A stretch of 64,000 nt of DNA, from positions 21,330 through 85,329 of the forward strand of contig CAWHXT010000005.1 in the NCBI GenBank assembly GCA_963833485.1, written 5' to 3'. Positions 7,512-32,661 of the stretch are shown here, one piece after another (positions within the stretch are counted from its first letter, which is position 1; each line of letters opens with the position of its first letter). Both the position numbers and the translations under genes were made by a program. Source of the DNA: an uncultured Candidatus Micrarchaeota archaeon (GTDB taxonomy: Archaea; Micrarchaeota; Micrarchaeia; Micrarchaeales; CABMGC01). The notes under the pieces were generated by a model that saw only the letters and a list, made by a program, of their open reading frames with translations, searched no databases and was not told the DNA's origin.

Positions 7512-8156
7512 TTGATAGTCATGCTCAGTGAAAAAGATGTAAATTACGTTAGGGAGCTGTTCAACGGCAGGCTGAAGGGGGAGGTTGGGCTAGAACTTTT
7601 TATTGAGCCAGGAAGCAATTATTCTGACGCTGCAGTTGAACTTCTTGGAGAGCTTTCTAGGATTGAAAAAAAGATTAAGCTGAGTGTAATCGATATAAGC
7701 AAAGAGAAGGAGAAAAAGCGCGAGAGGGGGGTAGACAGGGCTCCGGCACTCATGGTATCTCCAGAGAAGGGATACAAACTCTACTATTTTGGAGTGCCTT
7801 CAGGATATCAGTTTGCCGCATTACTTGAAGACATCATTGACGCTTCTGCAGGAACGAGTAGACTAAGCGGTATCACTAAAGATAACCTCAAGAAAATACA
7901 AAAGCCTGTGGACATAAAGGTGTTCGTTGACTCGATGGAGGAGCTCTGCGCCAGGGCGGTAAGAATAGCCCACCAGTTCTCGATGGAGAACAGCATGATA
8001 AGGAGCAGCATGATCGACCTGAACCAGTTCCCGGAGGTCACAACCCACACACCGATGAGCGTGCTTCCTCATGTGGTCATAAACAACGTGATCTCGTTCG
8101 AGGGGCCTCTGCCTGAAAACGAGTTTTTAGAGTACGTGCTGGCGAGCGTGAAGTGA
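7512..8156 (+). CDS. Protein disulfide oxidoreductase (PDO)-like double thioredoxin-fold protein lacking both CxxC motifs
   Basis: Collinear with archaeal PDO/glutaredoxin-like proteins ('DRAPAL', 'YFGVPSGYQFAALLEDIID', 'AVRIAHQF'). The two active sites read SNYS and EELC instead of CxxC. Confidence 0.55.
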   Translation: MIVMLSEKDVNYVRELFNGRLKGEVGLELFIEPGSNYSDAAVELLGELSRIEKKIKLSVIDISKEKEKKRERGVDRAPALMVSPEKGYKLYYFGVPSGYQFAALLEDIIDASAGTSRLSGITKDNLKKIQKPVDIKVFVDSMEELCARAVRIAHQFSMENSMIRSSMIDLNQFPEVTTHTPMSVLPHVVINNVISFEGPLPENEFLEYVLASVK

Positions 8157-10463
8157 CTACTGCTCTGATACAACAGTTGCGCCGTTAGCTGCTTTGTCCC
8201 TTGTCAGAAGATAGGTCTTAGAACTTGCAGCTTGCTTGAGATTTTCGTCGTGAGTTATTATGAATATCTGGTCTATGATCCTTGGTAAGGTCTCGTTGAA
8301 CACTTTTATGAACCTGTTCATTCCCTGCTCATCTATGTTGTGAGTAGGTTCGTCCAAGATTATCCACTTCAGGTTTGGCACCAGCACGAGTGAGAATGCT
8401 ACGCGCATTGCAAGGCAAGCTATACTTCTCTCTCCGCCACTTGCTATTGCTTCTACTTCTTCCCATCTTTCCTCTCTCCCGTTGCTCGTCTTAACCATAA
8501 GCGAATAGTCATTTGATTTGGCGTCGAGCATTATGCTTGAATAGTCTTCGTATGGATAAAGTTCAGGCCATACGTTCTGCATCACGTTGTTGATCGAGCC
8601 TATCAGCTTGCTCCTCATTGTTATCTGCGTCTCCTCCAGTGCGTTCTTGAACTTGGTGATATTCTCAACAGCTCCCCTTCTTCTCTTCAGACCCTCCAGC
8701 ATCTTCTCTATTTTTTGGATCTGCTCCTCCTTCTCCTTTATCTGCTTCTCCTTTTCCGAGATGTATTTTGAATGTGCGTCTATCTCTGAGTTGATCTTGA
8801 CAGTGTTAGAATTGATTTGGACAAACTGTTTCTGTTTTACTTCTATTTCCTCCTCTCCGATCTTGATTGCGTTGTGCTCTTTCTCCTTGTCCTTGTTCTC
8901 TTGCTCTAATACTGAGATCTTTTTCGTGAACTCCTCGAGCCTTTCACTCTTTTCTTCACTAGATTCAAGGGAGTTAATGGTTTTCACCAATTCTTCAAGG
9001 TTTTTCCTTGTGTTTTCCACCCTGTCGCGCTCCTTTTCATAGGACTCTTTTGCTGCTGCAACGCTCTTCACAGAATCTTTGAGCTTTTGCTCGAGGCCAA
9101 CATAATCCTTCAGTCTGTCGTGAGAGAGCCTGAGCTTATCAAGCTCCTTCATCTTTTTATCGATTTCTCCCCTTTTTTCGGATATGTCCTTGCTTGCGTC
9201 TTTTATTCGCGCTTCCGCATTTGAGACCAGCGAGTTCTTCCCTTCTATAAGTCTCTTACGCATGTCTTCATCGAGCTCCCTTTCGCATACTGGGCATTTG
9301 CTTAGGTGCTTGCGAAGTTCTTCTATCCATTTTGTGCTTTCTTGCTTCTCTGATTCAAATGCCGCAAGCTGCTTCTCTAGTTCATGGAGGTGTTCAGAAA
9401 GTTTTTTGAGTTCTTTTTCCTCCTTTTCAATATCTCTTCCTTTGTATTCCTGCTCGATCTTATCTCTTTCCCCAATTTTCTGATTAATCTGCTTGACCTG
9501 TGCCTCGATGTCAGAAAGCTCTTTTGAGAATTTTCTCTCTTTTTCCTTTGACGATTGTTCTTCGTCCCTAAGCTTCTCGAGCCTTCCCTTAGTCTTCAAG
9601 ATCTCTTTCTCTATTTCCGCCTTTTCTGGAAGCTTCTCCTTGTTAAGCCTGGTAATCTCTGCCTTGGTAAAATCGATCTTGCTTTTCAACTCTGCAAGCT
9701 CCTTAGAGAGTTTTATCTTTTCTGAATATTCGTTCTTCATCTCTTTTAGCTCTAAATCAATCTTCTTCATTTCAGCGTCTGCTTTTTTCTTTTCTCCTTC
9801 CAGATTTTCTCTCTTCTTCTCAAGCGTCCCAAGTTCATCCTTTAGAGCCTTGTTGCTCTTTTTGAGCTCGTTTACCTCTAGATTCTCGACTATCTTCTCC
9901 TGGTCGCTTATTGCGTCTTTTATCCTGTTAACTAAAGAAGTAGCATTTTCCTGTGCTAGAGCAAACTTGTCAAGCCCTAGGAGCTCGTCTATCTGCTCCT
10001 TCCTGCTCTTCGCGCTAAGTTCAAGGAAATAGTCAAGCCTGTTCTGTTCGGAATATATCGCTCTAGAGAAAAGATCGTAATCGACTTTCAGTATCTTCTC
10101 AATCTCCTCGTTCACCCTCTGCGGCTGTGATTGAAGATAGCTTCCGTTCTTTTCTAGCGTCGCCTTTGCCCCTCCTGTGGTTGATATGACTCTTTCAACA
10201 GTATACGCATTCCCGTCTAGCTCGAAGCTTAATTTTACTTTGGCTTCGTTCTCCTGCGTAGGTCTATTGGTTATCAAGTCGTTAACATTGACTCTTCTAT
10301 GTTGTATCGCCGGGAACACTCCAAATAGGCCGTAAGAGATGGCGTCCATCACGGAACTCTTTCCCGCACCCATGAGACCTATCAGGACATTCGTACCTTT
10401 TGTGAAGTTCAGTTTGGTGTTTCTATGCGTTTTCCAGTTCTTAAGTTCTATAGAAATAATCAT
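8157..10463 (-). CDS. rad50: DNA double-strand break repair ATPase Rad50
   Basis: 768 aa. Walker A 'GLMGAGKSS', long Lys/Glu coiled coil, central zinc hook 'CPVCER', signature 'SGGE', Walker B 'ILDEPT'. Confidence 0.9.
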   Translation of the reverse strand: MIISIELKNWKTHRNTKLNFTKGTNVLIGLMGAGKSSVMDAISYGLFGVFPAIQHRRVNVNDLITNRPTQENEAKVKLSFELDGNAYTVERVISTTGGAKATLEKNGSYLQSQPQRVNEEIEKILKVDYDLFSRAIYSEQNRLDYFLELSAKSRKEQIDELLGLDKFALAQENATSLVNRIKDAISDQEKIVENLEVNELKKSNKALKDELGTLEKKRENLEGEKKKADAEMKKIDLELKEMKNEYSEKIKLSKELAELKSKIDFTKAEITRLNKEKLPEKAEIEKEILKTKGRLEKLRDEEQSSKEKERKFSKELSDIEAQVKQINQKIGERDKIEQEYKGRDIEKEEKELKKLSEHLHELEKQLAAFESEKQESTKWIEELRKHLSKCPVCERELDEDMRKRLIEGKNSLVSNAEARIKDASKDISEKRGEIDKKMKELDKLRLSHDRLKDYVGLEQKLKDSVKSVAAAKESYEKERDRVENTRKNLEELVKTINSLESSEEKSERLEEFTKKISVLEQENKDKEKEHNAIKIGEEEIEVKQKQFVQINSNTVKINSEIDAHSKYISEKEKQIKEKEEQIQKIEKMLEGLKRRRGAVENITKFKNALEETQITMRSKLIGSINNVMQNVWPELYPYEDYSSIMLDAKSNDYSLMVKTSNGREERWEEVEAIASGGERSIACLAMRVAFSLVLVPNLKWIILDEPTHNIDEQGMNRFIKVFNETLPRIIDQIFIITHDENLKQAASSKTYLLTRDKAANGATVVSEQ

Positions 10464-15851: not shown

Positions 15852-16469
15852 TTAAGAAGGTACACGATTCTTAGAACCATTAGTTAATACTGAACTACGC
15901 AGTCCCTTAGGAATAAGAGACCTGTCTCTTACTAAGCTATTAACGAAATCAGAGGTATGGTTTGGAGAAAGAAGAGGTTCATGATCCCCAAACAGCAGTC
16001 TATCTGATATTCTTCCTAATACTACTGACTCTGCGGCACAAATCGTTCCCTTTTCTCTTTGGACCTCCTTTAACTTTCCTATATTCTCTTCAATGTCTCC
16101 AGTAAAAGTGAGGAGCTCGGGGTTTCCTTTAGGTCTAAATTGATAAGCCAAAAAATCTATACCACGAACATTGCGACCTTGTTCGGATACATGGCCTCCT
16201 AGAAATGCAACTCCAAATACATTCGGAAATCTAGCAAATGCATTATATCTGCATATTTCACTATATTTATATAACTCGGGGGCAGTGGTTATTTCCTCAA
16301 GTGCCATTTTTACAAATCCTAAACTTTCCTCTGCGTTATAGGTGTATGAACCTTTTCTTTCAGGATCCGAGAAGCTCTCTAAAGTGAAAACTGCTATAGG
16401 TAGAAGTCCGTGCATTGTGCTGTCTGCACCGATAAATTTTGATCCGTCATATGTATTCTTGTGATCCAT
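15852..16469 (-). CDS. Hypothetical protein
   Basis: 205-aa ORF with no recognisable motif. Confidence 0.4.
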   Translation of the reverse strand: MDHKNTYDGSKFIGADSTMHGLLPIAVFTLESFSDPERKGSYTYNAEESLGFVKMALEEITTAPELYKYSEICRYNAFARFPNVFGVAFLGGHVSEQGRNVRGIDFLAYQFRPKGNPELLTFTGDIEENIGKLKEVQREKGTICAAESVVLGRISDRLLFGDHEPLLSPNHTSDFVNSLVRDRSLIPKGLRSSVLTNGSKNRVPS

Positions 16470-18793: not shown

Positions 18794-19723
18794 ATGGATA
18801 CATCTATGGAAGAAACAAACAGCTCTTTATTCGGGGGAGATCGCATAGAGAAACAAAGGGCCAAAGCGCTAGAAGGGGAGAGCAGCAACTATCAGAACCT
18901 TGTAGCCCTGATGATAAAGAAGGCCAGAAACAACAGGGAATATAAGAAGTACAACGAAGCCTCCAGTCTACTCACGTTAGAATATTACAAGAGACTGGGA
19001 AACATCGACGACGCAATGAGAGTTGTCTACGCTCTGGTAGAGAACGCAGAAAACATCGAGGAACTGATGAGGCACTACAACGCGCTGCTTAACGAAGATA
19101 AGCAAGAAGGAGAGGCAAATGATGATGAACAGGCAAAGAACAAGATAATCAATACGATGCTTAATGACTACAAGAAGAGGTTTGGACAGGAGAAGGTGGA
19201 GGCGTACAAGGTGCTCGTGCTGCAGGGCTGGATAAACAAGGTGGAGAACATCAACGAGCTTGCCATAATCATGGACAACACACTTACGATTAGAGATAAG
19301 ATAGGCAATTCATGGGACTATGAGGTCCATGTGGTGCCGCTGCTCCTGGACAAGGCGTTCGATACGGAAACTTTCATAGACTTCACGAACTCCACTACAA
19401 ACTTTATAGTCGGCTTAACCAGAAGGATAAAGGACAGCTACCTCGCGGTCATGACTGCGGTGAAAATCCTGGAGATTTCTGACTCTCCAAAGGTCATGAA
19501 GAAGTACATAAGGGACATGATAAAGGAGAACAGCAAGAAGATAGACCAGCTCAACACAGAACTTGCAATAATAAGCTCAAGCGGAATCGCGAAGATAACG
19601 AAGATTGCCAGAGTGAGAGAGATAGTAGAAGATCTGGAAGACTACAACAAGCAGATAGAAGAGCTAATGAATGGGATAGATCCTAAGGAGCTTATGATAG
19701 AAGGCGGGCCGAAGAAGCAGTAA
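18794..19723 (+). CDS. Hypothetical protein (helical, charged)
   Basis: 309-aa ORF with no recognisable motif. Confidence 0.45.
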   Translation: MDTSMEETNSSLFGGDRIEKQRAKALEGESSNYQNLVALMIKKARNNREYKKYNEASSLLTLEYYKRLGNIDDAMRVVYALVENAENIEELMRHYNALLNEDKQEGEANDDEQAKNKIINTMLNDYKKRFGQEKVEAYKVLVLQGWINKVENINELAIIMDNTLTIRDKIGNSWDYEVHVVPLLLDKAFDTETFIDFTNSTTNFIVGLTRRIKDSYLAVMTAVKILEISDSPKVMKKYIRDMIKENSKKIDQLNTELAIISSSGIAKITKIARVREIVEDLEDYNKQIEELMNGIDPKELMIEGGPKKQ

Positions 19724-23272: not shown

Positions 23273-23343
23273 GGGCTCGTGGTCCAGCGGTAAGACGCCA
23301 CTTTCACAGAGTGGAGAGCGGAGTTCGACTCTCCGCGGGCCCA
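23273..23343 (+). tRNA. tRNA-Val (anticodon CAC)
   Basis: Acceptor GGGCTCG/CGGGCCC (one G-U pair), anticodon arm CCACT-TTCACAG-AGTGG, T arm CGGAG-TTCGACT-CTCCG. Confidence 0.9.
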
Positions 23344-23395
23344 TCACCAGATTTGTCGTCGAAGAAAATTTGTTAAAAACACAGTTTGTCGTCTT

Positions 23396-23410
23396 GGAGT
23401 TCAACTCTCC
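23396..23410 (+). repeat. tRNA-Val T-arm-like fragment
   Basis: 'ggagttcaactctcc' matches the T arm of the adjacent tRNA-Val ('ggagttcgactctcc') at 14 of 15 positions. It lies 53 nt after the tRNA. Confidence 0.5.
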
Positions 23411-23434
23411 TCCTTTTCAGTTTAATGGAAAATT

Positions 23435-23776
23435 TCAAATTATCTTTAAATGTATGCCAACTACGCCATTTAGTTTTTCCTCTTCTTTACTATAAATTGA
23501 GTATTGTTTTTCCAGTTGCTCATCTAACGTAATATTTTTAGGATGGCCTAATTTTGTTTTATCAAAAGTCGAAAGAAGATCTTTGAAAGACTTGAATACT
23601 GAGAGACCAATCACTTCACATTTTACTTTTTCTCCATCAGGCAGTCTTTCAAATATAATAGTATCTCCTAAATTGATTTTCCTTCTCTTTTCATCCAAGA
23701 GCCTTATTTCGATTGTCTTTTTTCTAGTCCTAACTAGCTCAAAAGGTTCTTGATTAAGATGCATGTTATGTATCAT
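23435..23776 (-). CDS. ASCH (PUA-like) domain protein
   Basis: 'EPFELVRTRKKTIEIRLLDEKRRKINLGDTIIF' is a typical ASCH N-terminal core. 113 aa. Confidence 0.7.
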   Translation of the reverse strand: MIHNMHLNQEPFELVRTRKKTIEIRLLDEKRRKINLGDTIIFERLPDGEKVKCEVIGLSVFKSFKDLLSTFDKTKLGHPKNITLDEQLEKQYSIYSKEEEKLNGVVGIHLKII

Positions 23777-23801
23777 TTACACCATCTTAGTATTTTTACG
23801 G

Positions 23802-24986
23802 TCATTCTCTTAAAACATATGTAAGATACTCTGCACTATAATTCCTAAATAATTTCTTTGGATCTGAAGTCCAATTTTTTACTTCAGCCCAAAGTTTTTC
23901 TAATCCTTGCTCTCCGTACTGCTTTTTGAATTCAACTAGATTCAAGAATCCTTCAGGCATATCATAAGTTCCTTTTTGCACATACACTGATTTTGAAAAC
24001 TTCGCACCAGACCAGTCTTCTATTATCGGAGTAAAGAGCCTCATTGGCCTATCAGAATAATTATATTTAAGTAAAGACAGACCTTCAGATACAATATATT
24101 CTGTCATATGTACCCAATCTCCTCCATCTACCATGAGATCTAGCGCCTTTCCTTCTTTTGCTTCTTCTATGAATAATGCTTCTTTAATTACATTTCTAAC
24201 AGGGGTGTTCATATCAATAAAGTCTTTATTATCACCACTCAAAGTAATTTCATAAGGCCCGTGATCAGGACATTCACTTAATAAAATAAGACTATTGCGA
24301 CTTATGCTCGCTTTTATTTTAGTTTTTACACCGGATTTTTCAGCAAACTTGCAAATTGGGCAAGGAAATCTGACTCTAAGATGACCTTCGGATGGAGCTA
24401 CTACTGGAGCAAATTCACTTTCTCTATCAATCATTTCAAGCAGCGTTTTCCTAACAAATGGAATCTCTTGGAATTGCTTGTAGTATAGAATTTCATAATC
24501 TACTCCTGTTTTCTTCTTTAATAGTTCTAAGATTTCCTTAAAAGAGTTTAGGTATACTTCTGATAATGGACCCTCACCGACGTATGTGTCGCAATGCATC
24601 TTTGCATAGGTCAAACCGTTGACAACTTTTTGCTCTTTGGGTGCATTTTCTAAAGCTTCAAATTTAATTTTTGCCGGAATTGCGAAACGATTTGATAACT
24701 TTTCGGCTATAGCAAATGCGGTCATTATGCTTAATACAGAGCCTAAATGTGGGTGGCTATTCATTTGTGCAGAAAAATGTATCTGTATGCTTTGCTTGTC
24801 TTTAATTCTTGGTGCAAAAAGATCTGTTACATCATTTGTTATATGTGCTATCACGACAGGTGGATATACTAAGGGTTTGTCTGTTTTCAAATCTTTTCTG
24901 ACTAAAGTATCTATGTGGTCTTTCTCTGAATATACAGTTTCGCCTGAGCTATTTTTGCTATTTTCTTTTTTCACAATCCCCACCAA
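23802..24986 (-). CDS. Class-I aminoacyl-tRNA-synthetase-like (HIGH/KMSKS nucleotidyltransferase) protein with no evident anticodon-binding domain
   Basis: HIGH-like 'HPHLG' (nt 24741-24755) and KMSKS-like 'KFSKS' (nt 23988-24002) lie about 250 aa apart. A 'CPIC...CPDHG' knuckle sits between them. TTG/GTG start directly abuts the upstream stop. Confidence 0.45.
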   Translation of the reverse strand: MVGIVKKENSKNSSGETVYSEKDHIDTLVRKDLKTDKPLVYPPVVIAHITNDVTDLFAPRIKDKQSIQIHFSAQMNSHPHLGSVLSIMTAFAIAEKLSNRFAIPAKIKFEALENAPKEQKVVNGLTYAKMHCDTYVGEGPLSEVYLNSFKEILELLKKKTGVDYEILYYKQFQEIPFVRKTLLEMIDRESEFAPVVAPSEGHLRVRFPCPICKFAEKSGVKTKIKASISRNSLILLSECPDHGPYEITLSGDNKDFIDMNTPVRNVIKEALFIEEAKEGKALDLMVDGGDWVHMTEYIVSEGLSLLKYNYSDRPMRLFTPIIEDWSGAKFSKSVYVQKGTYDMPEGFLNLVEFKKQYGEQGLEKLWAEVKNWTSDPKKLFRNYSAEYLTYVLRE

Positions 24987-25478
24987 TTAAAAACTATTTA
25001 TTCTGCTTTGTCTTCTAAAAGTATCTGGTAATTTGCTTTCTAATAGCGTAAGTAATCGCCTATGCTGCTCTTCTTCTTTTTTCAGATAATAGAAGTTTTG
25101 AGGCGCTATGAAACTAGGCATTAATTCCTTTATTTGCGCGAATCCTATTTCAATTCGAACAGGACTTTCTACACGAAGTGCTGAGCATAAGTCTATGCCT
25201 TTGAAATATTCTGTAAGTCCTTCTCTAGTGGACGTTGTTTCGTTTAATGTTAGTTCTATTAGAGAATCTAACGGCTTTCGTAAAAGTTTGGTGACTTGAC
25301 ATACTCCTACTATAGCCTTGGTTTCTTCAGTAGCATACAAAGCCATGGGTGTAGATTCTTCTATATTCGGAGGTGTTCTTCTGTATTCCCATTTCTTTAC
25401 GCCGCTAAGTATGGCTTCGGCAAATTTAGGCTTAATGCTCAGGACTATTATCCTATTAAAATCCCCCATTTTATTCAA
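24987..25478 (-). CDS. ASCH-domain protein (longer form, with C-terminal extension)
   Basis: 'LSIKPKFAEAILSGVKKWEYRR' is a typical ASCH/COG4933 N-terminus. 163 aa. Confidence 0.6.
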   Translation of the reverse strand: MNKMGDFNRIIVLSIKPKFAEAILSGVKKWEYRRTPPNIEESTPMALYATEETKAIVGVCQVTKLLRKPLDSLIELTLNETTSTREGLTEYFKGIDLCSALRVESPVRIEIGFAQIKELMPSFIAPQNFYYLKKEEEQHRRLLTLLESKLPDTFRRQSRINSF

Positions 25479-25589
25479 ATATAATAGTACATTTCTCCTA
25501 TTTAAATAATACTTATAAATTTGTTTTTAACTAAATGATGAATAAATATATATGGCAAATGCCATACAAAGAGAGTGCTACCTTAGACA

Positions 25590-25607
25590 TCGTGGTCCGC
25601 GGGCCCA
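25590..25607 (+). repeat. tRNA-Val-derived fragment (putative att-like direct repeat)
   Basis: 'tcgtggtccgcgggccca'. Its last 12 nt are identical to the tRNA-Val 3' end (23332-23343) and its first 9 nt to tRNA positions 5-13. Confidence 0.6.
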
Positions 25608-26901: not shown

Positions 26902-28203
26902 ATGCCATCAAACGGAGAAGAAAAGAAAAAATATAAGTTTTTATTCGTCACGCAAGAAGCATTATCACTTGATCTAGCTTGGCAGTTAGAAAAAGAAGGG
27001 CATGAAGTTAAGTTCTATTGTCATGACCAGCCTGAGAAAGACGTTGGAGAGGGATTTGTAGATAAAGTAGATAGTTGGGAAGAGCAGAAGGACTGGGCAG
27101 ACATCGTGGTTTTTGACGATGTGGGGTGGGGGTCGAAAGCTGACCAACTTAGGAAGGAGGGAAAGTTTGTAGTTGGAGGCTCCTCTTACACAGACAAGCT
27201 CGAGTTAGATAGGGATTTTGGGCAGAACGAATTAAAGGAGGCTGAAGTGCCGATTCTATTGAGCCATAACTATACCTCTTTTGATGAGGCAATTGATTTT
27301 GTAAAAAACAACCCAGATAAGTATGTAATAAAACCCAGTGGAGCTATCCAGGATGAAAAAGAGCTCCTGTTTGTGGGCCAGGAGGACAATGGCGCAGATG
27401 TGCTGCAGGTTCTTGAGCACTACAAAAGCACATGGTCCAAGAAGATAAAGACATTTTTACTGCAAAAGGTTGCAGAGGGAGTCGAGGTCGCGGTTGGGGC
27501 CTTCTTTAACGGAAAGGACTTTGTGCTGCCAGTCAACATAAACTTTGAGCATAAGAGACTTTTCCCTAATGAGATAGGTCCAAGCACTGGAGAGATGGGA
27601 ACCAGCATGATGTGGGTGAAAAGCAGCCCGGTATTTGATACCACTCTGAAGAAAATGAAGGATAAGATTGCGGCGAGCGGATATGTTGGATACATAGACA
27701 TCAACTGCATAGCAAATGGGAGGGGGATATGGCCATTGGAATTCACCTCACGCTTCGGGTATCCTACAATAAGCATCCAGATGGAGGGGATAACGAGCGA
27801 GTGGGGGCAGTTCCTTTACGATTTGGCGCACGGGAACGATGTTCAATTGAAGACTAAGAAAGGATACCAGGTGGGAGTCATCATTGCAATTCCTCCATTT
27901 CCGTTTGAGGATGAAAAGGCCTTCAACAAATACTCAGAAGGAGCCGCAATTCTTTTCAGAAGGCAGAATCTTGACGGAGTGCATATAGGCGAGGTGAAGC
28001 GCAATGGAGATGACTGGTATATCGCTGGAAAGTCTGGATACGCGCTGATAATCACTGGATCTGGAGTTACTATGGCAAACGCGATAAACGGAGCTTACCA
28101 GAACGTCAAGAACGTGATGATACCAAACATGTTCTATAGATCTGACATAGGACATAGGTGGTATAGGGACAGCGACATGCTGCTCAGCTGGGGCTACTTC
28201 TGA
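26902..28203 (+). CDS. PurD-like ATP-grasp enzyme (phosphoribosylamine-glycine ligase family)
   Basis: Collinear with PurD motifs: 'YVIKPSG', 'EHKRL', 'GPSTGEMGT' (cf. GPNTGGMG), 'EFTSRFGYPT' (cf. EFNCRFGDPE), 'SDIGHRW'. The N-terminus lacks the canonical GGREHA. Confidence 0.55.
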   Translation: MPSNGEEKKKYKFLFVTQEALSLDLAWQLEKEGHEVKFYCHDQPEKDVGEGFVDKVDSWEEQKDWADIVVFDDVGWGSKADQLRKEGKFVVGGSSYTDKLELDRDFGQNELKEAEVPILLSHNYTSFDEAIDFVKNNPDKYVIKPSGAIQDEKELLFVGQEDNGADVLQVLEHYKSTWSKKIKTFLLQKVAEGVEVAVGAFFNGKDFVLPVNINFEHKRLFPNEIGPSTGEMGTSMMWVKSSPVFDTTLKKMKDKIAASGYVGYIDINCIANGRGIWPLEFTSRFGYPTISIQMEGITSEWGQFLYDLAHGNDVQLKTKKGYQVGVIIAIPPFPFEDEKAFNKYSEGAAILFRRQNLDGVHIGEVKRNGDDWYIAGKSGYALIITGSGVTMANAINGAYQNVKNVMIPNMFYRSDIGHRWYRDSDMLLSWGYF

Positions 28204-30714: not shown

Positions 30715-32661
30715 TCAGCTTATTTTATTCATTATAGCTCTTGCGAGTACGAATAGGTTAAGTGGGAGGGTAGAAAGGCTTTGAATTTGTGCGTTTACGT
30801 TAGGGGCGTTCTGCGAATTTATGCTAGGAACTTGTGGTGGGACGGTCGTAGTAGGAGAGCCGGTTATTGAATAAGTAGCGTTAGTCATATTGAAAAGTGC
30901 TCCAACTGATTTTCCTGTTGACGAATCTGTGATATTAAGGTACCATGGTCCTGGGGAGATGTTGGACTCGGTTTGGAATGTACCAGAGACGTATCCATAT
31001 GCGTCGGAGAAGGAATCTGGAGTGAAAGTTATTGTGTTGTTGTTCTTAACATTGATCAAAGACAGCACTGCACTAGAATATGGAGAAACACAGGCCTCCC
31101 ACGAGAGATAGCTCCCAATTTCGTAGCCACCATCGACTCCAGGTCCAACTGAAGTGATGTTCAGCCATGGAGGATTGCTGCACGCAAAACTGCTAGTGCT
31201 GCTTTGTGGAAGTACTATCTTTGAAGGCACGCGGCCAGTGTTGTGATTCCTTCCTAGAGGAGCCTCTGTTAATACATAGCCATCAAAGTTTGCCATTTCT
31301 TCAGAATGGTTCGCCCCGTTAGAGTAGTAGATCACCCAAAGGTCATAATTCTTATAAGATCCTATTTTGGTACTACTATTCACAGGACAGTTGAAGAATA
31401 GTTGCAAGTTATTAGTGCCTCTATGTAAAGATATGTTGACAGCTGTGAAGTTGTTTGCTGAAGGGTAGCCAGTGTAAGAGTAGGTGTAATATGCAAATGG
31501 AGAGATGCACGCCAGGCCGTATATGCTGTCTCCGTTTTTCAGGTTGCCAAAGCTGAAGTTTGCCCTGAGAGTTCCTGTAAGGTTTAACATAGGACGTGAG
31601 CAGTAGCTATAGTTCGTTTCCAAGTTTGGTATTCCTGAGATGTAATATGAACCGCAATAGCTTGGAAGAAGAGCGCTCAAATTAAGAAGGGGTCCTGGAA
31701 GAGCAGTAATTTCACTATCCGGCAATGGCTGCGAGCTTAGGGAAGTTTCATTGATTATAGTATTAAAGGATGTTTTGTTTTGACCAACTGAGATTGTGAT
31801 ATTAGAAGTTGAGGTAAGAAGTACGTTGTTATAAAGGTTTGAGAAACAGCCAGAAAACTTTCCTCCTATATTGAATCCCTTTGGACCATAATAGTAATAA
31901 TCTGAAGTAATGTTTACTATGGAGTTTATCGGTATGTACCCGCTTAGATTGCCTTTCACCAGGACGCATGGAGAACCCTTGTATGCGCTTTCAGAGACAG
32001 AACTGATTGTAAGGTTGATATCCTTCAATATTGTACTGTTCGAGAAATTTGAAGTATACTTGTATGGATTCAGCCCACTGCTGTACGAAGATGTTGCATT
32101 TCCATATACTCCAAGTGTTTTGTTATCAATGCAGCCAACGCTGCTCATGTTTTGCTGCGTTGTAGAAGAAGCAGCATTAGAGAACATCCCTAACAGGCCT
32201 TCAGACGCACCACCATTTTGAAACAGGTCGCTGCAAACATAACTAATTGAGTTGTTCCTTATATCTGTGAAATTGATGTTCAATGAATAGCTGAAGCTAG
32301 AAAGCTGCAGGTTTATTGTCGTCCCAAAGAATGTCCTAGAAACATTACCATTCTTATCTAGACTTACATTGAAAGGTATGCTTAGCTTAAAGGAGGTTAT
32401 GCCGCTTTTTATGTCTAAGTTTGAGTTGCCGCTGTAATTAACAAAGATCTGTTTTGTTGGATTTTGTTTGCTCTGCTGTGCGATTAGATTAATTAAAGTT
32501 GCAAGATTCAGCTGCTTGTGCGTTAGTAGATATTTAAAGAGCACATTTTGAGAAGCGGGTTGATATAGAAAGAAGTAAAGTGCAGCAATGATTATCAAAG
32601 CAATAGCGATTGTTGCAATTTTTATCTTTGTAGGGATCATGCAACAGCCAAATAAAAACAA
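30715..32661 (-). CDS. Large secreted or surface protein, Asn/Ser/Thr-rich with many N-x-S/T sequons and an N-terminal TM anchor
   Basis: N-terminal hydrophobic segment 'IATIAIALIIIAALYFFL'. Dozens of N-x-S/T sequons. Paralogous to the product of 44999-46423. Confidence 0.6.
   Translation of the reverse strand: MFLFGCCMIPTKIKIATIAIALIIIAALYFFLYQPASQNVLFKYLLTHKQLNLATLINLIAQQSKQNPTKQIFVNYSGNSNLDIKSGITSFKLSIPFNVSLDKNGNVSRTFFGTTINLQLSSFSYSLNINFTDIRNNSISYVCSDLFQNGGASEGLLGMFSNAASSTTQQNMSSVGCIDNKTLGVYGNATSSYSSGLNPYKYTSNFSNSTILKDINLTISSVSESAYKGSPCVLVKGNLSGYIPINSIVNITSDYYYYGPKGFNIGGKFSGCFSNLYNNVLLTSTSNITISVGQNKTSFNTIINETSLSSQPLPDSEITALPGPLLNLSALLPSYCGSYYISGIPNLETNYSYCSRPMLNLTGTLRANFSFGNLKNGDSIYGLACISPFAYYTYSYTGYPSANNFTAVNISLHRGTNNLQLFFNCPVNSSTKIGSYKNYDLWVIYYSNGANHSEEMANFDGYVLTEAPLGRNHNTGRVPSKIVLPQSSTSSFACSNPPWLNITSVGPGVDGGYEIGSYLSWEACVSPYSSAVLSLINVKNNNTITFTPDSFSDAYGYVSGTFQTESNISPGPWYLNITDSSTGKSVGALFNMTNATYSITGSPTTTVPPQVPSINSQNAPNVNAQIQSLSTLPLNLFVLARAIMNKIS

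What the first reader, a model, noticed from the sequence alone, without database searches (positions are those of the whole stretch)
23435..25478. Operon of a truncated class-I aaRS-like enzyme flanked by two ASCH (PUA-like) proteins: candidate undescribed RNA/protein modification module
Three tightly packed genes lie on the minus strand. The stop at 24987-24989 directly abuts the TTG start at 24984-24986, and the next gap is 25 nt. The middle 394-aa protein carries a HIGH-like 'HPHLG' and a KMSKS-like 'KFSKS' about 250 residues apart. A 'CPIC...CPDHG' knuckle sits between them. This layout recalls the catalytic core of class-I lysyl/methionyl-tRNA synthetases, but with no room for an anticodon-binding domain. 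Truncated aaRS paralogues are known to aminoacylate non-canonical targets: Glu-Q-RS/YadB acts on a tRNA base and PoxA/GenX on EF-P. ASCH domains are PUA-like RNA-binding or RNA-processing modules. I do not recognise the ASCH - aaRS-like - ASCH combination as a described system, and it sits in a tRNA-linked islet.
Basis: partly seen in the sequence, partly recalled or inferred. Interest (0 to 1): 0.75.

Follow-up and report, generated by a model that had tools for sequence, protein, structure and literature searches.

The report
Truncated LysRS-like ligase with ASCH partners
A small horizontally acquired gene cassette inserted at a tRNA gene encodes an uncharacterised enzyme derived from a tRNA synthetase that has lost its tRNA-anticodon reader and is almost always paired or fused with small nucleotide-binding ASCH proteins, which points to an undescribed way of attaching amino acids to nucleotides or nucleic acids.

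Summary
Three co-oriented minus-strand genes encode an ASCH protein, a 394-aa protein and a second, unrelated ASCH protein. The middle protein has no Pfam or NCBIfam hit. Its confident AlphaFold model is a class-I aaRS catalytic domain closest to class-I LysRS (1IRX), and it ends about 60 residues after KFSKS. HPHLG, GGDW, KFSKS and the CxxC...CxxH knuckle are invariant across the family. The family has about 524 representatives at 50% clustering, in DPANN archaea, CPR, Firmicutes, Proteobacteria, Actinobacteria, plasmids and phages. An ASCH gene lies within 6 kb in 43 of 49 loci, and both ASCH types also occur fused to the enzyme's C-terminus. Both keep the K-x-x-E-x-R pocket of ASCH acyl-cytidine amidohydrolases. 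Larger bacterial versions add nucleotide kinases, NUDIX, N-glycosidases, methyltransferases, SAM decarboxylase and an AlkZ-like glycosylase. In the window the cassette is bounded by a 12-nt repeat of the tRNA-Val 3' end and has the lowest GC in the window. All three genes show dN/dS of 0.05-0.08. My best reading is an ATP-dependent aminoacyl ligase that acts on a nucleotide-type acceptor held by ASCH, carried on mobile elements. The chemistry is inferred, not shown. I found no published description.

The parts
24987..25478 (-). Long ASCH protein ('ASCH-L', 163 aa as listed; the likely start is the ATG at 25469, giving 160 aa)
   Evidence: Pfam ASCH E = 3.3e-7, above cutoff. PADLOC PDC-M11B E = 1.6e-23. 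phrog_3136 E = 2e-22. AF2 model pLDDT 77, closest to the ZmASCH ssRNA-binding nuclease at TM 0.75 and E = 1e-11. Keeps the Ser...G-x-K-x-x-E-x-R pocket. dN/dS 0.078.
23802..24986 (-). Truncated class-I aaRS-like ligase ('aaRSl', 394 aa from the TTG; the likely start is the GTG at 24974, giving 390 aa)
   Evidence: No Pfam, NCBIfam or PDB sequence hit on its own. AF2 pLDDT 89. Foldseek 1IRX class-I LysRS E = 1.8e-9. Family profile against 1IRX E = 0.011 with the HIGH motif aligned. PF01921 hit in 9 of 42 members. phrog_35625 'tRNA synthetase' E = 7e-41. dN/dS 0.06.
24741..24755 (-). HIGH-like motif HPHLG (aa 78-82)
   Evidence: Translation. P79, H80 and G82 are invariant in 42 sequences. It sits in the loop between strand 66-74 and helix 81-101 of the model, the canonical HIGH position.
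24258..24362 (-). CxxC...CxxHG zinc knuckle (aa 209-243) in the insertion between the two Rossmann halves
   Evidence: Translation. C209, C212 and C239 are invariant; H242 and G243 are conserved at 90% or more.
24114..24134 (-). MVDGGDW motif (aa 285-291), the predicted ribose-binding G-x-D of the second Rossmann half
   Evidence: Translation. G288 and D290 are invariant. The assignment to ribose binding is inferred from class-I aaRS knowledge.
23988..24002 (-). KMSKS-like motif KFSKS (aa 329-333)
   Evidence: Translation. G327, K329, S331 and K332 are invariant.
23435..23776 (-). Short ASCH protein ('ASCH-S', 113 aa)
   Evidence: Pfam ASCH E = 6.3e-9. phrog_19935 'RNA-binding protein' E = 2.4e-26. 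Same type as the C-terminal domain of the actinobacterial fusions (E = 2.5e-15) and as phage Picard gp29 (E = 2e-14). K-x-x-E-x-R is conserved. dN/dS 0.053.
23273..23343 (+). tRNA-Val(CAC), the apparent insertion target
   Evidence: ARAGORN. Rfam tRNA 53.4 bits.
23332..23343 (+). Direct repeat copy 1, TCCGCGGGCCCA (3' terminal 12 nt of tRNA-Val)
   Evidence: Only two matches in the 64-kb window, even when one mismatch is allowed; chance mean is 0.13.
25596..25607 (+). Direct repeat copy 2, TCCGCGGGCCCA, in the intergenic region just beyond the ASCH-L start
   Evidence: The 2,252 bp between the two copies (23344-25595) hold exactly the three genes. GC is 0.343, the lowest of all same-length windows (mean 0.438, sd 0.032). 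GC3 is 0.25-0.29 against 0.46-0.62 in neighbouring genes. DNA homology to the independent cassette L052 (window 23434-25548) is nested inside this segment.
25470..25548 (-). Upstream region conserved with L052; A/T-rich with TATA-like boxes (TTTATAA, ATTTAAATA). Presumed operon promoter.
   Evidence: The blastn block extends to 25548. Sequence read. The promoter role is inferred, not tested.
23396..23410 (+). T-arm-like tRNA fragment GGAGTTCAACTCTCC inside the islet's tRNA-proximal end
   Evidence: One mismatch to the tRNA-Val T-arm at 23320-23334; chance mean is 0.04.

Best explanation
The cassette is the minimal, archaeal form of a widespread, horizontally mobile enzyme system.

**Core enzyme.** It descends from the catalytic domain of a subclass-Ib class-I aminoacyl-tRNA synthetase, closest to class-I LysRS. 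It has kept the complete ATP and adenylate site (HIGH, G-x-D, KMSKS) and the zinc knuckle of the acceptor-binding insertion. It has lost the anticodon-binding domain.

**Proposed mechanism.**
1. The enzyme activates an amino acid, or an amino-acid-like carboxylate, with ATP as an acyl-adenylate.
2. It transfers the acyl group to a nucleotide-type acceptor. This could be the ribose of a 3'-terminal or free nucleotide, or an exocyclic amine of a base.
3. The acceptor is bound and presented by an ASCH (PUA-like) partner, which occupies, in trans or as a fusion, the place of the lost anticodon-binding domain.
4. The second ASCH protein has the same K-x-x-E-x-R acyl-base pocket as the ac4C amidohydrolases YqfB and EOLA1. 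It acts as reader or eraser of the product.
5. In bacteria, extra genes phosphorylate, dephosphorylate, deglycosylate, methylate and extend the product.

**Biological role.** The system travels on mobile elements, so it is most likely an accessory conflict or niche function, not part of translation.

**Shown:** the fold, motif invariance, purifying selection, the ASCH linkage and fusions, the accessory gene repertoire, and the islet structure.

**Inferred:** catalytic activity, the identity of the amino acid, the nature of the acceptor, the division of labour between the two ASCH proteins, and the biological role.
For: **Enzyme.**
- Class-I aaRS fold, closest to LysRS-I.
- HIGH aligned to that of 1IRX; PF01921 hit in 9 of 42 members.
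- The invariant residues are exactly HIGH, G-x-D, KMSKS and the Cys knuckle.
- dN/dS 0.06.
- The protein ends about 60 residues after KMSKS.

**Coupling to ASCH.**
- An ASCH gene within 6 kb in 43 of 49 loci spanning archaea, CPR, Firmicutes, Proteobacteria, Actinobacteria, a phage and plasmids. The further loci L049-L053 and L056 all carry an adjacent or fused ASCH.
- C-terminal fusions with ASCH-S (P0113, P0175, P0198, L049, L050) and with ASCH-L (P0110).
- A two-gene aaRSl plus ASCH-S unit beside the integrase of the temperate Streptomyces phage Picard.

**ASCH pocket.**
- K-x-x-E-x-R is conserved in both types. ASCH-L also has the Ser 14 residues upstream, as in EOLA1 (triad defined in preprint 10.64898/2026.08.01.741249).
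- ASCH-L is structurally closest to ZmASCH, which binds ssRNA and ssDNA and cleaves ssRNA (PMC5615036).

**Nucleotide theme in larger cassettes.**
- NUDIX, thymidylate-kinase-like and AAA_28 kinases, nucleoside 2-deoxyribosyltransferase, LOG-family TIGR00730, non-canonical purine NTP pyrophosphatase and AlkZ-like DNA glycosylase.
- The kinase resembles the viperin-associated kinase VakA.

**Mobility.**
- Tn7-like cargo; Tn3 transposase and resolvase flanks; plasmids and phages.
- A tRNA-Val islet with a 12-nt direct repeat and a GC trough.
Against: - No biochemical data exist, and the acceptor is not identified.
- The accessory nucleotide enzymes are absent from the archaeal triad itself, so extrapolating from the bacterial cassettes may mislead.
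- Two plasmid versions carry transporters (DMT, MFS) and ATP-grasp ligases. These fit a secreted small-molecule product better than nucleic-acid modification.
- L038 and Pantoea L047, both with full flanks, have no ASCH gene.
- The enzyme matches no PADLOC model, so a defence role is only contextual.
- The ASCH triad is also found in ASCH domains that merely bind nucleic acids, such as TRIP4.
- The similarity to LysRS-I is remote (13% identity), so the amino-acid specificity is unknown.
Confidence: 0.5

Rival explanations
1. A stand-alone, anticodon-independent tRNA (or tRNA-like RNA 3'-end) aminoacylation system. The enzyme still esterifies A76 of a tRNA, and the ASCH protein acts as a PUA-like acceptor-stem or CCA-end binding module in place of the anticodon-binding domain. 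It could supply aminoacyl-tRNA for a non-ribosomal use, or let a mobile element charge or mischarge tRNAs during conflict.
For: Ancestry from subclass-Ib aaRSs, with the acceptor-side zinc knuckle retained. ASCH is fused exactly where the anticodon-binding domain would be. ASCH-L is closest to an ssRNA-binding ASCH that cuts between a pyrimidine and an adenine. PUA domains of other RNA enzymes bind 3' CCA ends (my own knowledge). GluQRS is a precedent for a truncated Ib paralogue acting on tRNA.
Against: No tRNA-dependent transferase (Fem, MprF, CDPS or PacB type) accompanies the gene in any locus. The recurrent partners act on mononucleotides or DNA: kinases, NUDIX, N-glycosidases and AlkZ-like. 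No tRNA-like RNA is encoded inside the cassette.
Confidence: 0.2
2. A biosynthetic ligase for a small secreted metabolite, such as an aminoacyl- or peptidyl-nucleoside antibiotic or an amino-acid-derived opine or polyamine. The enzyme would form an amide or ester on a small molecule in the manner of MshC, and ASCH, NUDIX, ITPase and AlkZ-like proteins would serve as self-protection.
For: Pantoea plasmid: methyltransferase, aaRSl, LOG-like, DMT transporter, NTP pyrophosphatase. Macrococcoides plasmid: MFS and HTH genes, then two ATP-grasp ligases, aaRSl and ASCH-L. Croceifilum: GNAT and an APH-like kinase next to aaRSl and ASCH-L. AlaDH/saccharopine-DH-like, up to three methyltransferases, SAM decarboxylase (also fused, P0147), PhyH dioxygenase and a pyruvate-kinase barrel. 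The MshC-type relative BshC appears among the fold matches.
Against: Most cassettes, including all the archaeal ones and the phage and actinobacterial two-gene units, have no transporter, no regulator and no tailoring genes. The near-obligate pairing and fusion with ASCH is hard to explain if ASCH is only a resistance factor.
Confidence: 0.17
3. A protein-modifying aaRS paralogue in the manner of PoxA/GenX on EF-P. The enzyme would aminoacylate a lysine of a protein, possibly the ASCH partner itself.
For: PoxA is a precedent. The only universally linked proteins are the ASCH proteins, which carry an invariant Lys in K-x-x-E-x-R.
Against: PoxA is class II and mimics tRNA recognition through EF-P's shape, and nothing comparable is seen here. 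The accessory genes are nucleotide enzymes. The invariant ASCH Lys is part of a known ligand pocket.
Confidence: 0.05
4. A spare or degenerate copy of the host's own LysRS with no separate function, whose neighbourhood with ASCH genes is coincidental.
For: Archaea use class-I LysRS, and the closest fold is LysRS-I.
Against: 13% identity to 1IRX and no Pfam hit. No anticodon-binding domain. Strong purifying selection. About 524 family representatives across both domains of life and viruses. ASCH linkage in 43 of 49 loci plus fusions. Foreign composition and an insertion signature.
Confidence: 0.02

Closest known systems
Class-I lysyl-tRNA synthetase (Pyrococcus horikoshii LysRS, PDB 1IRX; Pfam PF01921)
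   Same: Best structural match (E = 1.8e-9, TM 0.49) and best sequence-profile match, with the HIGH motifs aligned. Shares the Rossmann core, KMSKS and a Cys-rich insertion.
   Different: Identity is about 13%. The window protein has no Pfam hit, and only 9 of 42 members hit weakly. It lacks the whole C-terminal anticodon-binding region. It is always linked to ASCH genes and carried on mobile elements.
Glu-Q-RS (YadB), the truncated GluRS paralogue that glutamylates queuosine in tRNA-Asp
   Same: Same design principle: a subclass-Ib catalytic domain without an anticodon-binding domain, with a zinc site, acting on a nucleotide base rather than in translation (my own knowledge). GluRS structures are the next-best fold matches.
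   Different: Not a member: PF00749 is hit weakly by only 2 of 42 members. Glu-Q-RS works alone and has no ASCH partner. The acceptor here is unknown.
MshC and BshC, CysRS-type class-I paralogues that ligate cysteine to a small-molecule amine
   Same: Class-I aaRS catalytic domains redeployed for acyl-adenylate chemistry outside translation. BshC appears among the fold matches (rank 33).
   Different: Different subclass. No thiol-biosynthesis context and no ASCH partner.
Acyl writer plus ASCH pairs: TmcA/NAT10-type cytidine acetyltransferases linked or fused to YqfB/EOLA1-type ASCH ac4C amidohydrolases
   Same: An acyl-transferring enzyme genetically coupled or fused to an ASCH domain with the K-x-x-[T/E]-x-R pocket, which binds or hydrolyses an N-acylated base (preprint 10.64898/2026.08.01.741249; triad conservation).
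   Different: The writer here is an ATP-dependent aaRS-like ligase, not an acetyl-CoA GNAT enzyme. The acyl group would be an aminoacyl group. Neither the base nor the linkage is known.
ZmASCH of Zymomonas mobilis (PDB 5GUQ/5GUS)
   Same: Closest solved structure to the long ASCH protein (TM 0.75, 26-28% identity). It binds ssRNA and ssDNA in a basic cleft.
   Different: ZmASCH is a stand-alone protein with a reported Mg-dependent ssRNA nuclease activity and no known aaRS-like partner. I did not check whether its Tyr47, Lys53 and Ser128 are conserved here.
PADLOC phage-defence candidate PDC-M11 (gene B)
   Same: The long ASCH protein matches PDC-M11B models (E = 1.6e-23; also the gut-Bacilli orthologue).
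   Different: The aaRS-like enzyme and the short ASCH match no PADLOC model. I could not establish the identity of PDC-M11A. PDC systems are untested candidates.
PoxA/GenX-EF-P
   Same: An aaRS paralogue without an anticodon-binding domain that aminoacylates a non-tRNA acceptor.
   Different: Class II fold, a protein acceptor, and a housekeeping role. No similarity in sequence or context.

Membership tests
Class-I aaRS catalytic-domain superfamily (HUP Rossmannoid fold with HIGH and KMSKS) | Rossmann-fold catalytic domain structurally matching class-I aaRSs | tested here: met
   AF2 pLDDT 89. 169 PDB matches at E <= 0.001; of the 50 listed, 49 are class-I aaRSs (the other is the MshC-type relative BshC), with 1IRX first. 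The viral library also returns only class-I aaRSs.
Class-I aaRS catalytic-domain superfamily (HUP Rossmannoid fold with HIGH and KMSKS) | HIGH and KMSKS signature motifs, conserved and at their canonical positions | tested here: met
   HPHLG lies after strand 1 and KFSKS after the last core strand. Both are invariant in 42 sequences. HIGH is aligned to that of 1IRX.
Class-I aaRS catalytic-domain superfamily (HUP Rossmannoid fold with HIGH and KMSKS) | Amino-acid-dependent ATP-PPi exchange or adenylate formation | not testable with these tools
   Requires biochemistry.
Canonical class-I LysRS (PF01921) | Pfam PF01921 match above the gathering score | tested here: not met
   No hit for the window protein. 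Only weak hits in 9 of 42 members, best E = 3.1e-6.
Canonical class-I LysRS (PF01921) | C-terminal anticodon-binding domain | tested here: not met
   The protein ends 61 residues after KFSKS, while 1IRX is 523 aa. The Foldseek alignment covers only part of the target (TM normalised to target, 0.40).
Glu-Q-RS / YadB | GluRS-type catalytic domain (PF00749) | tested here: not met
   PF00749 is hit weakly by 2 of 42 members, best E = 0.009. GluRS structures rank below LysRS-I.
ASCH domain (PF04266) | Pfam match above the gathering score | tested here: met
   36.9 bits for the 113-aa protein and 31.4 bits for the 163-aa protein, against a cutoff of 21.2. The ASCH-L model matches ASCH structures.
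ASCH acyl-cytidine amidohydrolases (YqfB/EOLA1 type) | Pocket triad K-x-x-[T/E]-x-R, plus a Ser/Thr 14 residues upstream | tested here: met
   ASCH-S consensus is kk.iEvR. ASCH-L consensus is S...G.K.yEyR with the Ser at -14. ASCH-S lacks the conserved Ser (triad definition).
ASCH acyl-cytidine amidohydrolases (YqfB/EOLA1 type) | Hydrolysis of N4-acylcytidine; linkage to a TmcA/NAT10-type writer | tested here: not met
   No NAT10/TmcA-type gene in any locus; the linked writer candidate is the aaRS-like enzyme. The activity itself cannot be tested here.
PADLOC candidate system PDC-M11 | Presence of both the A and B genes | tested here: inconclusive
   B is matched by ASCH-L. The other two window proteins and nine accessory proteins match no PDC-M11A model. 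What the A gene encodes could not be looked up.
tRNA-integrated genomic islet | Lies at the 3' end of a tRNA gene, with a direct repeat of the tRNA 3' end at the distal boundary | tested here: met
   TCCGCGGGCCCA at 23332-23343 and 25596-25607, the only two matches in the window.
tRNA-integrated genomic islet | Composition deviating from the host | tested here: met
   GC 0.343 is the minimum of all 2,252-bp windows. GC3 is 0.25-0.29 against 0.46-0.62 in neighbours.
tRNA-integrated genomic islet | Integrase or recombinase in or next to the islet | tested here: not met
   Only the three genes lie between the repeats. No integrase or transposase domain was found in the ORFs scanned within about 8 kb on either side.
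tRNA-integrated genomic islet | Existence of an empty-site allele | tested here: inconclusive
   Two exact-match scans of metagenome contigs found neither the empty nor the occupied allele.

The most novel reading that the evidence does not exclude
A previously unknown class of enzyme system in which an ASCH/PUA-like domain has replaced the anticodon-binding domain of a LysRS-I-derived synthetase. It would direct ATP-dependent aminoacylation to a nucleotide acceptor (an RNA 3' end, a base amine in RNA or DNA, or a free nucleotide). The product would be an aminoacyl-nucleotide or aminoacylated nucleic-acid mark, with a paired ASCH reader or eraser. Phages, plasmids, transposons and tRNA islets would use it across archaea and bacteria as a conflict (defence or counter-defence) system.
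Probability: 0.35. Interest if true: 0.85.

Novelty: new variant of a known kind. Interest (0 to 1): 0.72.

Why it matters
Truncated aaRS paralogues have repeatedly revealed unexpected chemistry: Glu-Q-RS on a tRNA base, PoxA on EF-P and MshC in mycothiol synthesis. This family is a class-I LysRS-type example with about 500 sequence clusters and no experimental characterisation.

Its near-obligate pairing and fusion with ASCH domains gives a directly testable hypothesis for two open questions. One is what the many prokaryotic ASCH proteins recognise. The other is whether nucleotides or nucleic acids are aminoacylated outside translation.

The family occurs in a temperate phage next to the integrase, as Tn7 cargo, on plasmids and in a tRNA islet of a DPANN-type archaeon. 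That suggests a role in inter-genome conflict, with accessory genes (a viperin-type kinase, NUDIX, N-glycosidases) reminiscent of nucleotide-based antiviral systems.

An anticodon-independent aminoacylating enzyme with a modular acceptor-binding subunit could also be of practical interest for enzymatic acylation of RNA or nucleotides.

Tried and rejected
- **Direct sequence searches.** Searches of the 394-aa protein against Pfam, NCBIfam, PDB sequences and PADLOC gave nothing. Only the family profile and the structure revealed the relationship.
- **Literature.** Searches for ASCH plus LysRS, ASCH plus aaRS plus defence, truncated class-I LysRS paralogues, aaRS-like anti-phage systems, ASCH plus conflict systems, and AlkZ/SAM-decarboxylase/thymidylate-kinase/ASCH found no description. 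The Iyer/Aravind 2013 DNA-modification survey is not held, so I cannot exclude that it mentions this neighbourhood.
- **PDC-M11.** It is mentioned only once in the held library, without its composition.
- **Repeat finder.** With a 14-nt minimum it missed the 12-nt tRNA repeat. I found it by reading the sequence and confirmed it with a pattern search.
- **AlaDH-profile hit near the window cassette.** It is only a generic Rossmann match in an SDR gene, so I rejected it as part of the system.
- **c6.** I first suspected c6 to be a divergent short ASCH. It is a SAM decarboxylase.
- **Hidden RNA.** No structured or tRNA-like RNA lies in the cassette.
- **Mobility genes.** No integrase was found near the islet.
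- **Empty-site allele.** Two metagenome scans found nothing.
- **Word-seeded homologue searches for the two ASCH proteins.** They returned only 3-4 hits each, so the ASCH-L structure rests on a shallow alignment (pLDDT 77).
- **Spare host LysRS.** I rejected this idea; see the rival explanations.

Full report
**1. Observation**

The window carries three co-oriented minus-strand ORFs:
- 24987-25478, 163 aa
- 23802-24986, 394 aa
- 23435-23776, 113 aa

The upstream stop codon abuts the TTG of the middle ORF, and a 25-nt spacer precedes the third ORF.

Direct translation confirms the motifs:
- HPHLG at aa 78-82
- CPIC...CPDHG at aa 209-243
- MVDGGDW at aa 285-291
- KFSKS at aa 329-333

Both flanking proteins pass Pfam ASCH above the gathering score. 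They are not detectably similar to each other by BLASTP. I call them ASCH-L (163 aa) and ASCH-S (113 aa).

The likely true starts are slightly downstream of the ORF-list starts:
- The enzyme probably starts at the GTG at 24974. It is preceded by GGTGGGG, the identical public protein is 390 aa, and residues 1-32 are disordered in the model and absent from most homologues.
- ASCH-L probably starts at the ATG at 25469.

Against an independent cassette that is 78% identical in DNA (L052), dN/dS is 0.078 for ASCH-L, 0.060 for the enzyme and 0.053 for ASCH-S. dS is near saturation there, so the ratios are approximate. All three are real genes under purifying selection.

**2. What the middle protein is**

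On its own it matches nothing in Pfam, NCBIfam, PDB sequences or PADLOC. It does have clear homologues: 113 in the word-seeded search, and 524 cluster representatives at E <= 1e-3 in the exhaustive search, of which 199 are at E <= 1e-30.

In an alignment of 42 members reaching down to 28% identity, the invariant columns are the HIGH-like motif (Q74, N76, P79, H80, G82), three cysteines of the knuckle, G288 and D290 of GGDW, and G327, K329, S331 and K332 of SGAKFSKS.

The AlphaFold2 model is confident (pLDDT 89, pTM 0.86). Foldseek returns class-I aaRS catalytic domains:
- Class-I LysRS 1IRX is first (E = 1.8e-9).
- GluRS, MetRS, GlnRS and ArgRS follow, along with the MshC-type relative BshC.
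- The viral structure library also returns only class-I aaRSs.

Sequence evidence agrees. A family profile finds 1IRX as the top PDB sequence hit, with HPHLG aligned to its HVGN. Nine of 42 members hit PF01921 weakly.

The polypeptide ends 61 residues after KFSKS, so there is no anticodon-binding domain. This is therefore a truncated paralogue of the subclass-Ib class-I aaRSs, closest to LysRS-I. It has an apparently complete ATP and adenylate site and retains the zinc knuckle of the acceptor-side insertion. The amino-acid specificity cannot be read from 13% identity.

**3. The ASCH link is systematic**

I fetched 41 loci from species-representative genomes, then further loci from assemblies, plasmids, phages and a viral contig.

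Unbiased clustering of flanking ORFs put ASCH-L next to the enzyme in 33 of 45 loci. An HMM scan of all stop-to-stop ORFs found an ASCH gene (S, L, or the divergent L-like 'c14') within 6 kb in 43 of 49 loci. Four of the six exceptions are contigs cut short on the relevant side, so only L038 and Pantoea L047 truly lack one. All later loci also have one.

Both ASCH types also occur fused to the enzyme's C-terminus, exactly where a canonical aaRS carries its anticodon-binding domain:
- ASCH-S: P0113 (Actinomadura), P0175, P0198, and the Streptomyces and Amycolatopsis plasmid genes.
- ASCH-L: P0110.

The simplest unit, enzyme plus ASCH-S, sits beside the serine integrase of the temperate Streptomyces phage Picard. 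There the genes are annotated 'tRNA synthetase' and 'RNA-binding protein'. PHROGs has families for all three proteins.

**4. What the ASCH proteins look like**

Both families keep the K-x-x-E-x-R motif. ASCH-L and c14 also keep a Ser 14 residues upstream of the Lys.

A 2026 preprint defines K21, [T/E]24 and R26 plus Ser/Thr7 as the catalytic pocket of the ASCH enzymes YqfB and EOLA1. These hydrolyse the N4-acyl amide of free ac4C. The preprint also notes operons and fusions of ASCH domains with NAT10/TmcA-type acyl writers (10.64898/2026.08.01.741249). It does not mention synthetase-like partners.

The ASCH-L model (pLDDT 77, built from a shallow alignment) is closest to ZmASCH (TM 0.75, 26-28% identity). 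ZmASCH binds ssRNA and ssDNA and cleaves ssRNA between a pyrimidine and an adenine (PMC5615036).

So the partners are competent nucleotide or nucleic-acid pockets of a type known to accommodate N-acylated bases.

**5. Larger versions of the system**

Archaeal loci carry ASCH-L, the enzyme and ASCH-S in varying order. A NUDIX gene is sometimes alongside (L037 E = 3e-53).

| Source | Gene order or content |
|---|---|
| Thermoactinomycetaceae; Pseudoalteromonas (as Tn7-like cargo) | AlaDH/saccharopine-DH-like, methyltransferase, methyltransferase-like, enzyme, ASCH-L, AlkZ-like DNA glycosylase |
| Many gut Bacilli | NUDIX, thymidylate-kinase-like, ASCH-L, methyltransferase, AlaDH-like, two methyltransferases, AlkZ-like, enzyme, SAM decarboxylase |
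| A Patescibacterium | Adds a second enzyme copy, a nucleoside 2-deoxyribosyltransferase and two kinases |
| Photorhabdus | Adds a PhyH dioxygenase and a pyruvate-kinase barrel |
| Actinobacterial plasmids | Add an AAA_28 kinase-like protein |
| Pantoea plasmid | Methyltransferase, enzyme, LOG-family N-glycosidase, DMT transporter, non-canonical purine NTP pyrophosphatase |
| Macrococcoides plasmid | Two ATP-grasp ligases, enzyme, ASCH-L |

Further points:
- One family member is fused to SAM decarboxylase (P0147).
- The kinase resembles the viperin-associated kinase VakA, NUDIX resembles PDC-S07, and ASCH-L resembles PDC-M11B in PADLOC. The enzyme itself is in no PADLOC model.
- ASCH-S (17 loci) and AlkZ-like (24 loci) never co-occur.

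The recurrent theme is handling of nucleotides and bases, through kinases, pyrophosphatases and three different kinds of N-glycosidase, together with amine or amino-acid tailoring.

**6. The islet**

The 12-nt 3' end of tRNA-Val (TCCGCGGGCCCA, 23332-23343) recurs exactly once in the 64-kb window. The second copy is at 25596-25607, in the same orientation, in the intergenic region just beyond ASCH-L.

The 2,252 bp between the copies contain exactly the three genes. That segment has the lowest GC of any equal-length stretch in the window: 0.343, against a mean of 0.438 and sd of 0.032. GC3 is 0.25-0.29, against 0.46-0.62 in the neighbouring housekeeping genes.

DNA homology to L052 (window 23434-25548) is nested within this segment, and the flanks are unrelated. 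L052 has its own, different, exact 12-nt direct repeat around the triad.

There is no recombinase in or near the unit, and empty-site searches found nothing. Three other archaeal loci have a tRNA gene within about 0.3-1.5 kb.

The 'tRNA-linked islet' reading is therefore well supported, although how the unit moves is unknown.

**7. Interpretation**

The best-supported explanation (confidence 0.5) has these elements:
1. The enzyme is an ATP-dependent aminoacyl or acyl-adenylate ligase.
2. It transfers its substrate to a nucleotide-type acceptor held by an ASCH partner.
3. The second ASCH acts as reader or eraser.
4. The bacterial accessory genes process the product.
5. The whole system is carried by mobile elements as an accessory, probably conflict-related, function.

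Shown here: the fold, motif invariance, purifying selection, linkage and fusion, the accessory repertoire, and the insertion signature. Inferred: the activity, the substrate, the acceptor, the roles of the two ASCH proteins, and the biological role.

Rivals:
- True anticodon-independent tRNA or RNA 3'-end charging (0.2).
- A small-metabolite biosynthetic ligase with ASCH and other genes as self-protection (0.17). The transporter and ATP-grasp versions favour this.
- Protein modification (0.05).
- A spare LysRS (0.02, effectively refuted).

**8. Comparison and novelty**

The system works most like Glu-Q-RS, a truncated subclass-Ib enzyme acting on a nucleotide, and like the acyl-writer plus ASCH pairs. 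It is a member of neither: the PF00749 and PF01921 membership criteria are not met, and no NAT10-type writer is present.

It does belong to the class-I aaRS catalytic superfamily, and its partners belong to the ASCH family.

I found no published description in the held library. Public names are 'hypothetical protein', 'ASCH domain-containing protein' or a similarity-based 'tRNA synthetase'.

I rate it a new variant of a known kind (non-canonical aaRS paralogues), with a substantial chance that the chemistry is new.

Noticed in passing
L052:1-3078 (Logan SRR31558123 contig): The same triad is flanked by an exact 12-nt direct repeat (ATGGAGGCAAGG at 7-18 and 2358-2369). The second copy extends into a 56-nt repeat (84% identity) that recurs at 2908-2963, after an adjacent 42-aa ORF plus a Fic-domain gene. 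This looks like two cassettes separated by repeated sites, either a cassette array or serial site-specific insertions. A subterminal motif, TTCGACGACAAA, is shared with the window (23352-23363, minus strand) and with no other fetched locus.
   Followed up: partly
window 23396-23410 (+): A T-arm-like fragment, GGAGTTCAACTCTCC, differs by one mismatch from the tRNA-Val T-arm. It lies inside the islet between the tRNA and ASCH-S. The distal repeat context (ATCGTGGTCCGCGGGCCCA, 25589-25607) also resembles the tRNA's 5' D-arm segment joined to its 3' end. Both may be relics of earlier recombination at this tRNA.
   Followed up: partly
window 23648-23663 and 25474-25489 (+): An exact 16-nt direct repeat, TTCAAATATAATAGTA. 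One copy is inside the ASCH-S coding region and the other overlaps the ASCH-L start region. Its significance is unknown.
   Followed up: no
Loci L001-L048: The short ASCH type (17 loci: archaea, actinobacteria, phage) and the AlkZ-like glycosylase (24 loci: Firmicutes, CPR, Pseudoalteromonas) are mutually exclusive partners of the enzyme. AlkZ-like always comes with the AlaDH-like and methyltransferase genes.
   Followed up: partly
P0164, P0166, P0179, P0212, P0218; L014:1827-2924 and 7974-9068: Some family members are tandem double aaRS-like proteins of 630-980 aa, and a Patescibacteria locus carries two separate copies. This hints at two successive ligations or an obligate dimer.
   Followed up: no
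P0147; L017-L031, L036 and L014: A pyruvoyl-type SAM decarboxylase (PF02675) is fused to the enzyme's C-terminus in one protein and lies immediately downstream in 18 loci. This suggests decarboxylated SAM, or decarboxylation of the attached amino acid, as part of the chemistry.
   Followed up: partly
window 26902-28203 (+): A divergent GARS/PurD-like ATP-grasp protein (GARS_A E = 4e-12; GARS_C just below cutoff; no N-domain hit). It lies two genes beyond the islet and outside the repeat-bounded segment, so it is probably unrelated to the cassette.
   Followed up: no
L053-L055 (JGI/ENA contigs, P0003, 77% identical enzyme): Here the enzyme is followed by a 149-aa ASCH-L-type gene. It has a Ham1p-like non-canonical NTP pyrophosphatase divergently upstream and an Elp3-like radical-SAM-GNAT gene downstream. 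The upstream ASCH position is empty or degraded.
   Followed up: partly
window 30715-32661 (-), 18794-19723 (+), 15852-16469 (-): A large ORF of 648 aa and two others of 309 and 205 aa near the islet have no Pfam match at E <= 0.001.
   Followed up: no
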